Shown here one piece after another: positions 8,083 through 8,209 of a stretch of DNA of 64,000 bases; position 1 is the first letter of the stretch, and each line of letters starts with the position of its first letter. A model generated the notes under the pieces. The model was not told where the DNA came from and made no database searches. It saw only the letters and a list, made by a program, of their open reading frames with translations. This stretch comes from a phage. The position numbers were made by a program, and so were the translations under genes. Location of the stretch: assembly GCA_031520405.1 (NCBI GenBank), contig GCA_031520405.1_4842.1. One strand, 5' to 3'.

Positions 8083-8209
8083 ATCTTTGAGGGCACTCAG
8101 TGTACAACAGGCTCCGATATTTCATAGGGCATTACTGCCTCGGATTTAAGTTGCCTTTCTCCTGAAACTCCATACAGTCTCGCGTCTGACGCGGAATGCC
8201 CTCAAAGAT
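8083..8209. repeat. perfect 13-bp inverted repeat with 101-nt spacer
   Basis: 8083-8095 ATCTTTGAGGGCA is the exact reverse complement of 8197-8209. Confidence 0.9.

What the first reader, a model, noticed from the sequence alone, without database searches (positions are those of the whole stretch)
8083..8209. Perfect 13-bp inverted repeat enclosing 101 nt, same architecture as 7798-7933
8083-8095 pairs exactly with 8197-8209. The 101-nt spacer is nearly identical in length to the 102-nt spacer of the neighbouring unit, suggesting two paralogous structured RNA domains. It ends one nt before the tRNA-like element at 8211.
Basis: seen in the sequence. Interest (0 to 1): 0.55.

Follow-up and report, generated by a model that had tools for sequence, protein, structure and literature searches.

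The report
Conserved RNA helix with swappable interior
The inverted repeat is real: it is the closing helix of a conserved phage RNA hairpin with an interchangeable interior, and it lies next to tRNA-like elements and an unannotated tmRNA-like tag template in the tRNA operon of a Kuttervirus (CBA120-like) phage.

Summary
8083-8095 pairs perfectly with 8197-8209. On the minus strand the helix extends to 20 bp (8212-8192 with 8100-8080) through G·U pairs. The 64-kb window holds only four such repeats, all within 1.35 kb, against 0.08 expected by chance.

The window is a Kuttervirus (Ackermannviridae). The repeat lies in a 2.4-kb unannotated gap upstream of the phage tRNA genes.

It is one of five long helices (U1-U5) kept in the same order across three genera, and partly in a fourth. 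For this one (U3), 17 distinct alleles keep the helix: 92% of cells pair, 16 of 20 pairs show two-sided changes, and G·U outnumbers A·C 21 to 5. The interior falls into eight unrelated classes of 9 to about 110 nt; some are cloverleaf-like with a canonical T arm.

The neighbouring unit (7798-7933) shares only the architecture. I found no sequence or topological similarity, so "paralogous domains" is not supported.

U3 follows two tRNA-like elements that end in CCA, and a tmRNA-like tag template (ANDNTFLAVA). Equivalent modules, each with a U3-like helix, occur in E. coli lambdoid prophages and in the Yersinia pestis plasmid pMT1.

Best reading (inferred, untested): a double-stranded RNA processing and stability helix in a polycistronic stable-RNA operon.

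The parts
8192..8212 (-). U3 helix, 5' strand in RNA sense (CAUAUCUUUGAGGGCAUUCCG).
   Evidence: covariation
8101..8191 (-). U3 interior, allele E1 (about 91 nt). Three hairpins are predicted, one with a GUAA tetraloop. This is the exchangeable part.
   Evidence: few informative changes; replaced by unrelated sequences in relatives
8080..8100 (-). U3 helix, 3' strand (CUGAGUGCCCUCAAAGAUGUG).
8211..8336 (-). tRNA-like element F: acceptor GCCGUU/AACGGC, discriminator U, CCA at 8213-8211, T-arm-like hairpin. A palindromic arm (8245-8258) sits where an anticodon arm would be.
   Evidence: 92-97% conserved even in Taipeivirus; no tRNA call
8339..8436 (-). tRNA-like element G: canonical T arm GAAGG-UUCGAGU-CCUUC, CCA at 8341-8339. 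Two alleles exist and the element is optional.
8440..8470 (-). Hairpin H (GGCGGGAGG...CUCCCGCC). Its loop GUGUGAUUAAUAA is conserved as far as lambdoid prophages.
8481..8516 (-). Hairpin GUGAGG/CCUCAU. Its loop may pair with the downstream UUCGG to form a pseudoknot.
   Evidence: stem covaries (GCAAGG/CCUUGU in Menlow); loop/downstream CCGA/UCGG vs CCAG/CUGG in L038
8527..8580 (-). tmRNA-like tag template. Leader ...AAAAAUAAUC, resume codon GCU at 8562, ANDNTFLAVA, UAA at 8532-8530, UAG at 8529-8527. No start codon.
8614..8696 (-). U2: long helix (17-22 bp) with a 35-39-nt interior.
8943..8979 (-). U1: 17-bp hairpin with a 3-nt loop.
7934..8079 (-). Spacer module D, with several small hairpins. 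Some relatives carry a 45-nt module D' instead.
7798..7933 (-). U4: the neighbouring unit, a 25-bp helix with an 84-nt interior that is orthologous across genera.
7335..7426 (-). U5: 24-bp helix with a 42-nt interior.
10085..10110 (-). Perfect match to the family promoter motif TTCAAT-N14-TATAAT, upstream of the 189-aa gene that precedes the non-coding array.
   Evidence: motif taken from PMC7283392
5362..5384 (-). Terminator-like hairpin with a T run after the last tRNA. Putative end of the operon.

Best explanation
The repeat is the closing helix of an RNA hairpin domain (U3) read from the minus strand. It belongs to a long non-coding transcript that runs from a promoter at about 10110, through a small gene and a 2.4-kb array of structured RNAs, into the phage tRNA genes, and ends at a terminator near 5362.

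Shown:
- The helix folds on the minus strand.
- Selection keeps the helix, not its contents.
- It sits at a fixed position: directly after the tmRNA-like tag module, and, where they are present, after the tRNA-like elements G and F. The base of the helix pairs with the CCA end of F.

Inferred mechanism: the 20-bp helix is a double-strand-specific processing and stabilising site of the RNase III type, like the stems that flank rRNAs. Cleavage in the helix would separate the upstream tRNA-like and tmRNA-like RNAs from the downstream hairpin RNAs. Exonucleases could then trim back to the CCA end of F. The enclosed cassette would be released as a stem-capped small RNA whose content differs between lineages; in some lineages it is tRNA-like.
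For: Strand and structure:
- Minus-strand fold z = -5.96 against -2.8 for the plus strand.
- G·U outnumbers A·C 21 to 5 in U3. In the other helices the counts are 33:1, 11:3, 15:0 and 3:0.

Selection on pairing:
- 17 distinct alleles from 35 of 37 loci give 92.4% paired cells.
- 16 of 20 pairs have two-sided changes, and 0/500 shuffles reach this. Slid controls give 32-54% paired.
- Within-class compensations: E2 UUAGAGG/CCUCUAA against UUUGAGG/CCUCAAA; E3 GGGAGG/CCUCCC against GUGACG/CGUCAC.
- In Taipeivirus a 2-nt deletion at the helix base is matched by GUG to GGA on the other strand, so the CCA stays paired.

Fixed slot, variable interior.

Conservation: the same ordered helices occur in Kuttervirus, Taipeivirus and Agtrevirus. 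U2 and U3 also occur in Miltonvirus. A U3-equivalent helix follows the same upstream module in lambdoid prophages and in pMT1.

Operon context: all tRNAs are on the minus strand; promoter motif; terminator-like site; no ORF of 60 aa or more over the unit.
Against: - There are no expression or cleavage data. No transcriptome of this phage family turned up in the library.
- RNase III reactivity cannot be predicted from sequence.
- LIMEstone1 lacks U3 and U4, so the element is dispensable.
- A pure processing site does not explain why interiors are long, structured, and sometimes tRNA-like.
- The alleles were collected with a hairpin filter, which inflates the percentage paired. However, only two loci lacked the hairpin, and one of those is truncated.
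- Template-switch mutation in quasi-palindromes could produce some 'compensatory' changes without selection.
Confidence: 0.4

Rival explanations
1. The unit is a functional small RNA in its own right, and the interior is the effector. The long stem presents an interchangeable tRNA-like or acceptor-like module that works with the adjacent tmRNA-like tag template, as a split or modular tmRNA-like system. The window's E1 allele would be one variant.
For: - A tag template with 10 codons, no start codon and an E. coli-like upstream AAAAAUAAUC lies about 330 nt upstream. It varies by synonymous and conservative changes.
- E3 alleles fold as a cloverleaf-like five-way junction with a canonical T arm, and an inner hairpin covaries.
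- The lambdoid prophage equivalent encloses a T arm stacked on the long stem.
- No other tRNA-like partner is conserved in all phages.
Against: - The window's E1 interior, and E4, E5, E6 and L040, have no T arm.
- No allele has G3·U70 or a CCA at the right place.
- Rfam gives no tRNA or tmRNA hit over any interior.
- The order of elements does not match either known tmRNA topology.
Confidence: 0.2
2. The region is a graveyard of decaying tRNA and tmRNA genes. The hairpins have no function of their own; they stay perfect through DNA-level template switching in quasi-palindromes and through recombination between conserved flanks.
For: - Many degenerate tRNA-like pieces are present.
- Perfect palindromes sit where anticodon loops should be.
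- Indels are frequent, and modules are lost in Det7, Menlow and LIMEstone1.
Against: - The helices persist at the same slots across genera whose flanking protein is only 42-70% identical.
- G·U is strongly favoured over A·C on one strand. Template switching would not produce this bias.
- F stays 92-97% identical where its surroundings are about 75%.
Confidence: 0.13
3. The dense helices keep a long untranslated transcript folded, so that Rho cannot load and RNA polymerase reaches the tRNA genes. The structure acts as an anti-polarity device and/or a general nuclease shield.
For: - A 2.4-kb untranslated stretch lies between the promoter-proximal gene and the tRNAs.
- The 691-nt stretch 7790-8480 folds far better than shuffles (z = -6.1).
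Against: - This does not explain why specific helices are conserved at fixed slots.
- It does not explain why the CCA end is paired.
- A second promoter-like motif at 6926-6901 could serve the distal tRNAs.
Confidence: 0.12
4. It is a DNA-level element: a single-stranded DNA hairpin or cruciform used for cassette recombination (attC-like), a miniature inverted-repeat transposable element, or a replication/packaging signal.
For: - The outer 7 bp (CACATCT/AGATGTG) are conserved, while the inner arms and centre vary. This is attC-like.
- Cassette breakpoints fall at the arms.
- G·T is also tolerated in DNA hairpins.
Against: - There is no integrase or transposase nearby and no target-site duplication.
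- No other copy exists in the 64-kb window.
- No copy of U3 (E1 allele) or F exists in 5,426 complete E. coli genomes.
- The element always occupies the same slot, is co-oriented with the tRNA genes, and abuts a CCA end.
Confidence: 0.06

Closest known systems
RNase III processing stems (flanks of 16S/23S rRNA in rrn operons; phage T7 R1.1-type sites; RNase III role in T4 tRNA precursor processing). From my own knowledge, not tested here.
   Same: A helix of about 20 bp, formed by sequences flanking a structured RNA inside a polycistronic stable-RNA transcript. The structure is conserved rather than the sequence.
   Different: No cleavage is shown. The enclosed RNA is only about 90 nt and is not conserved. 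The helix abuts a CCA end.
tmRNA, one-piece (RF00023) and permuted two-piece (RF01849, RF04321)
   Same: The adjacent module carries a 10-codon tag template (ANDNTFLAVA against E. coli ANDENYALAA) with no start codon and a similar upstream A-rich leader. In some alleles and relatives a T-arm domain sits on a long helix, as the tRNA-like domain sits on helix P2 in tmRNA.
   Different: All Rfam scores fall below the gathering thresholds. ARAGORN at default settings finds nothing. There is no G3·U70 acceptor. The tag template lies 5' of a self-contained tRNA-like domain, which matches neither known topology. The window's U3 interior has no T arm.
YrlA / bacterial Y RNA (RF02553)
   Same: A long stem formed by the two ends closes a tRNA-like module. 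YrlA is also found in phages.
   Different: No covariance-model match to the unit. The order of arms differs. No Ro/Rsr gene is present in the stretch examined (1-20,000).
Transcribed inverted-repeat elements cleaved as RNA hairpins (Neisseria Correia/nemis elements, enterobacterial ERIC). From my own knowledge.
   Same: Units of 100-150 nt with long terminal inverted repeats, co-transcribed with neighbouring genes. Their RNA hairpins are RNase targets.
   Different: Those are dispersed multi-copy mobile repeats. This element is single-copy at a fixed slot and is absent from host genomes.
Integron attC sites
   Same: Conserved outer bases, covarying inner arms, a variable centre, and one strand that folds.
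   Different: No integrase is present. Here the hairpin itself is the variable cassette, and the context is an RNA operon.
RtT RNA (RF00391) of the E. coli tyrT operon. From my own knowledge.
   Same: A small structured RNA co-transcribed with tRNA genes and released by processing.
   Different: Unrelated in sequence, and no Rfam hit.

Membership tests
tRNA (RF00005) | Cloverleaf scoring above the Rfam gathering threshold, or an ARAGORN call, for the unit or for element F | tested here: not met
   only the tRNAs at 5609-7018 are called. With ARAGORN lowered to 80% threshold, 8211-8287 is called a weak 'tRNA-Leu'. No tRNA hit over E2/E3 interiors in L006, L007 or L011 at E<=5.
tRNA-like element (loose sense), for F | Acceptor stem, T-arm-like hairpin and an encoded 3' CCA | tested here: met
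   GCCGUU/AACGGC, U, CCA at 8213-8211; GGG-UUCGACU-CCC.
tmRNA (RF00023 / RF01849 / RF04321), for the adjacent module | Score at or above the gathering threshold | tested here: not met
   20.6 bits against 47 in the window; 26.5 against 47 and 24.7 against 50 in L004.
tmRNA, for the adjacent module | Tag reading frame without a start codon, ending in a hydrophobic ...A-A-type C-terminus, and conserved as a frame | tested here: met
   seven 10-codon variants in the pattern A-N-[DSE]-x-x-[FYVL]-L-[AM]-[AV]-A, with third-position changes. An in-frame UAG lies 8 codons upstream.
tmRNA, for the adjacent module | tRNA-like domain with a G3·U70 acceptor joined to the tag template through helix P2 | tested here: not met
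   J has U3·G70. F, G and the L038 domain have C3-G70 or G3-C70. None of them is conserved in all phages.
YrlA (RF02553) | Covariance-model match | tested here: not met
   No hit in window 4500-13000 at E<=10. The only hit was 24 bits, on genuine tRNAs in L004.
RNase III substrate | Helix of about two turns (20 bp or more) on the transcribed strand | tested here: met
   20 bp; alleles range from 15 to 21 bp.
RNase III substrate | Cleavage by RNase III in vivo or in vitro | not testable with these tools
   Needs RNA end mapping in rnc+ and rnc- hosts, or an enzyme assay.
Miniature inverted-repeat transposable element | Multiple dispersed copies and target-site duplications | tested here: not met
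   Single copy in the window. U3 (E1 allele) and F are absent from 5,426 E. coli genomes. No duplication at the flanks.
Paralogue of the 7798-7933 unit | Sequence or structural similarity beyond the closing stem | tested here: not met
   160/1000 (whole units) and 813/1000 (interiors) shuffles score as high; interior topology differs.

The most novel reading that the evidence does not exclude
Ackermannviridae phages, lambdoid prophages and pMT1/SSU5-like phage-plasmids share an unrecognised, rearranged tmRNA-like system. In it, the tag template and the tRNA-like acceptor part are separate modules. The U3 helix is the docking or processing stem that carries interchangeable acceptor-like cassettes. 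This would be a modular trans-translation device, or a decoy of one, that phages swap by recombination.
Probability: 0.15. Interest if true: 0.85.

Novelty: new variant of a known kind. Interest (0 to 1): 0.58.

Why it matters
About 280 sequenced Ackermannviridae genomes, many of them candidates for phage therapy or biocontrol, carry this region. It is either unannotated or filled with doubtful "hypothetical proteins". It appears to be a dense operon of structured RNAs. It has five conserved helices, several tRNA-like RNAs without anticodon loops, and a tmRNA-like tag template. The tag template also occurs in E. coli prophages and in the Yersinia pestis plasmid pMT1.

A helix that is kept while its contents are exchanged is a clear, testable case of selection on RNA architecture. 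The link to a tag template raises the question of whether phages manipulate ribosome rescue. If the helices are only processing sites, the practical gain is better annotation and a new set of natural RNase III-type substrates.

Tried and rejected
- Rfam at gathering and at permissive thresholds found nothing for the unit.
- ARAGORN with introns allowed and lowered thresholds gave only weak, inconsistent calls. ARAGORN tmRNA mode found none at default; at 80% it returned mostly noise, though it repeatedly picked the same tag.
- Two metagenome scans found 0 and 1 contigs, which was no help. IMG/VR yielded only 7-11 loci.
- Literature searches for a Kuttervirus/CBA120 transcriptome, for RNase III in phage tRNA clusters, and for tmRNA in Ackermannviridae found no relevant report. 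tmRNA appears in those papers only through the ARAGORN citation.
- Coding potential is rejected: no ORF of 60 aa or more overlaps the unit, and the longest is a 51-aa GTG ORF across element F.
- The interior structure of the window's E1 allele has only 5 distinct sequences. One pair covaries and two pairs break, so it is neither supported nor refuted.
- I looked for a distal 5' acceptor strand that would make element G the 3' end of a one-piece tmRNA. No convincing partner exists.
- Cross-pairing of the U2 and U3 strands as a long-range P2-like helix gives only 6-7 bp, judged by eye from the sequences. Rejected.
- A host origin for U3 and F is rejected: no match in E. coli genomes.

Full report
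**1. What the window is**

The 4.2-kb stretch 5300-9500 is 99% identical to Kuttervirus phages (family Ackermannviridae), such as vB_SenAc_BPS6, SFP10 and CBA120. In those records the only annotated features are tRNA genes on the minus strand and a few small hypothetical ORFs. The region matching window 7019-9270 has no consistent annotation. Two records mark a 21-nt "repeat_region" there, which is the left arm of the neighbouring unit. ARAGORN and Rfam find tRNA-Ser, tRNA-Asn, tRNA-Met and a fourth odd tRNA at 5609-7018, all on the minus strand, and nothing in 7019-9480.

**2. The observation**

- 8083-8095 and 8197-8209 are perfectly complementary.
- The 64-kb window contains four perfect inverted repeats of at least 13 nt with a spacer of 150 nt or less. 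All four lie in 7342-8687. Random sequences give 0.08 on average.
- On the minus strand the helix is 20 bp with two G·U pairs and folds at -56.6 kcal/mol (z = -5.96). The plus strand folds at -43.5 kcal/mol (z = -2.8).
- The neighbour at 7798-7933 behaves the same way (z = -6.5).
- No ORF of 60 aa or more overlaps the unit.

**3. Comparative anatomy**

A BLAST map against twelve relatives shows the region is a mosaic of modules with recurring breakpoints at 7131, 7441, 7501, 7604, 7933, 8080, 8102, 8195, 8340, 8436, 8746 and 8821.

I collected 36 loci from Kuttervirus, Taipeivirus, Agtrevirus, Limestonevirus and Miltonvirus. In RNA sense (the window's minus strand), five long helices recur in the same order:

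| Helix | Window position |
|---|---|
| U1 | 8979-8943 |
| U2 | 8696-8614 |
| U3 (the finding) | 8212-8080 |
| U4 (the neighbour) | 7933-7798 |
| U5 | 7426-7335 |

- phiMAM1 keeps U2 and U3. Its flanking protein is only 42% identical to the window's.
- LIMEstone1 keeps only a short U5.
- G·U outnumbers A·C in every helix: 21:5, 33:1, 11:3, 15:0 and 3:0. The folded strand is therefore the tRNA-sense strand.

**4. The helix is conserved; the interior is not**

35 of 37 sequences (the 36 relatives plus the window) carry a hairpin in the U3 slot whose base is CACAUCU...AGAUGUG. One exception is a truncated contig and the other is LIMEstone1.

The interiors fall into eight unrelated classes:

| Class | Unit length | Notes |
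|---|---|---|
| E1 | 133 nt | the window's allele |
| E2 | 89 nt | T-arm-like hairpin plus a GGCGCC palindromic arm |
| E3 | 121 nt | four inner hairpins including a canonical UCCGG-UUCGAAU-CCGGA T arm; a cloverleaf-like five-way junction |
| E4 | 86 nt | |
| E5 | 90 nt | |
| E6 | 42 nt | simple hairpin |
| E7 | about 150 nt | |
| phiMAM1 form | 72 nt | |

These are shown. EspM4VN and IME250 each carry two such units in tandem.

A gap-free alignment of the two strands from 17 distinct alleles gives these results:
- 92.4% of cells are paired.
- 16 of 20 pairs show two-sided changes, in 53 cells.
- The covariation score is 0.52 against 0.14 in shuffles, and 0/500 shuffles reach it.
- Slid controls give 32-54% paired.

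Within a single interior class there are clean compensations. E2 has A-U against U-A. E3 has G-C changing to U-A and to C-G. An inner E3 hairpin changes U-A to C-G.

Caveat: the alleles were found with a hairpin filter, and they are related sequences, so these numbers are upper bounds.

**5. The neighbour**

U4 is a true orthologue set with an alignable interior across three genera. Its stem covaries at 8 of 20 pairs. U3 and U4 are no more similar than shuffled sequences and have different predicted interior topology. They share an architecture, not an ancestry that I can detect.

**6. Immediate context**

Reading 5' to 3' on the minus strand:
- Hairpin H (8470-8440).
- tRNA-like G, with a canonical T arm and CCA at 8341-8339.
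- One nucleotide.
- tRNA-like F (8336-8211), with CCA at 8213-8211.
- U3, whose first two pairs use the C and A of that CCA.

In Taipeivirus two bases are missing at this junction. The opposite strand reads GGA instead of GUG there, so the whole CCA is paired.

G and F are optional. Det7 and Agtrevirus go straight from H to U3, and Menlow keeps only the last 14 nt of F.

F, the tRNA-like element A (7131-7025) and E2 all carry a perfect palindrome where an anticodon loop would be.

**7. A tmRNA-like module upstream**

Weak Rfam hits to permuted and alpha-proteobacterial tmRNA recur at the homologues of 8480-8680. The alignments show why. The window reads ...ACAAAAAUAAUC GCU AAU GAU AAC ACG UUC CUG GCA GUA GCU UAA UAG, which encodes ANDNTFLAVA. 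From memory, E. coli ssrA reads ...AAAAAUAGUC GCA AAC GAC GAA AAC UAC GCU UUA GCA GCU UAA, encoding ANDENYALAA.

- There is no start codon, and an in-frame UAG lies eight codons upstream.
- Relatives encode ANDNAYLAVA, ANDDVVLMAA, ANDSEVLMAA, ANSDEFLMAA and ANDSELLMAA. All have ten codons, and many of the differences are at third codon positions.
- BLAST against 5,426 E. coli genomes finds the same module in 756 genomes, mostly on plasmids.
- In one chromosome it lies between the Q antiterminator gene and the holin gene of a lambdoid prophage, with tag ANEEMYLAVA.
- In PLSDB it lies on non-mobilizable plasmids of 100-120 kb and on Yersinia pestis pMT1, with tag ANEDTYLAVA.
- A MAFFT alignment shows homology from the leader through the tag, a hairpin, hairpin H with its conserved loop GUGUGAUUAAUAA, and then a U3-equivalent helix.
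  - Lambdoid prophages have GGAAAGAGCAUU/AGUGCUCUUUCC there.
  - pMT1 has AUAGGGCAUG/CAUGCCCUAU.
- In one prophage that helix encloses a T arm. In another it encloses an unrelated interior.

U3 is therefore a conserved component at the 3' edge of a widespread phage RNA module related to tmRNA.

The module fails the formal tmRNA tests. Rfam scores are below threshold, ARAGORN at default settings finds nothing, there is no G3·U70, and no tRNA-like partner is conserved.

**8. Transcription context**

The family promoter motif TTCAAT-N14-TATAAT (PMC7283392) matches perfectly at 10110-10085 on the minus strand, upstream of the 189-aa gene that heads this strand. A near match lies at 6926-6901. A terminator-like hairpin follows the last tRNA at 5384-5362. 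I infer that this is one operon of roughly 4.7 kb; this is not shown.

**9. Mechanism**

Shown: an RNA-level helix under selection, at a fixed slot, pairing with a CCA end, with an exchangeable interior.

Inferred: it serves as a double-stranded RNA processing and stability site of the RNase III type, separating and maturing the neighbouring small RNAs. This is analogous to rRNA flanking stems and to RNase III action on phage T4 and T7 precursors (my own knowledge).

The rival readings are scored separately in the Rival explanations section of this report:
- the interior is the functional part of a modular tmRNA-like system;
- the region is neutral relics of decaying genes;
- the helices prevent Rho-dependent termination;
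- it is a DNA-level recombination element.

**10. Verdict**

The element has no Rfam family and no annotation. I found no report of it, or of a tmRNA-like gene in this phage family, in the searchable literature. That library is incomplete.

Noticed in passing
window 8527-8580 (minus strand); homologues L004 2936-3085, L038 4000-4075, L039 1500-1545: An unannotated tmRNA-like tag template (ANDNTFLAVA, no start codon, E. coli-like upstream leader). It is conserved with codon-structured variation across Ackermannviridae. It is also present in E. coli lambdoid prophages (between Q and the holin gene) and in pMT1/SSU5-like plasmids. It scores below Rfam thresholds and ARAGORN misses it.
   Followed up: partly
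window 5609-5694 (minus strand): A tRNA with normal acceptor, D and T arms but a 22-nt anticodon loop. GenBank records label it tRNA-OTHER; ARAGORN calls it 'Pro with a 15-nt intron'. By eye, the loop motif GAACAAGGUGCCUG also occurs in the lambdoid prophage locus L038 at about 4290-4305.
   Followed up: no
window 7087-7108, 8245-8258; E2 alleles in L006/L007; L031 (LIMEstone1) A-module: Several tRNA-like elements carry a perfect palindrome (centres GCGC, AGCGCT, GGCGCC, CCGG) exactly where the anticodon loop would be. This suggests a recurrent way of making tRNA-like RNAs without an anticodon.
   Followed up: no
L011 and L004 959-1173 (between the equivalents of window 7441 and 7466): Taipeivirus phages carry an inserted cassette that scores above the Rfam threshold for STnc100 (RF02076, 54 bits against 47). 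STnc100 is a prophage small RNA otherwise known from enterobacterial lambdoid prophages.
   Followed up: partly
window 7025-7131, 8750-8816 (minus strand): Two further degenerate tRNA-like elements. A has a CCA at 7027-7025, just upstream of tRNA-Met. J has a 7-bp acceptor with U3·G70, A73 and a canonical T arm. Both are present or absent depending on the phage. CBA120 has an HNH homing endonuclease gene in place of A.
   Followed up: partly
window 9479-10048: The 189-aa protein is 100% identical to that of some Kuttervirus phages. It is only 64.7% identical to that of phages whose adjacent non-coding region is 99% identical to the window (BPS6, S117). This marks a sharp mosaic boundary near 9500.
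   Followed up: no
GenBank records MN871475.1 and OR844942.1 (hits H32, H64): Records named 'Pseudomonas phage Pa-sanjiao' and 'Enterococcus phage Efm 3-10' are 99-100% identical to Kuttervirus here. They are probably mislabelled hosts or contaminants.
   Followed up: no
equivalents of window 7019-9270 in Magnus, Menlow, phi1_175010, Matapan and SeKF_64: Many small 'hypothetical proteins' (30-80 aa) are annotated on both strands across this structured-RNA region. They are inconsistent between records and are probably spurious.
   Followed up: no
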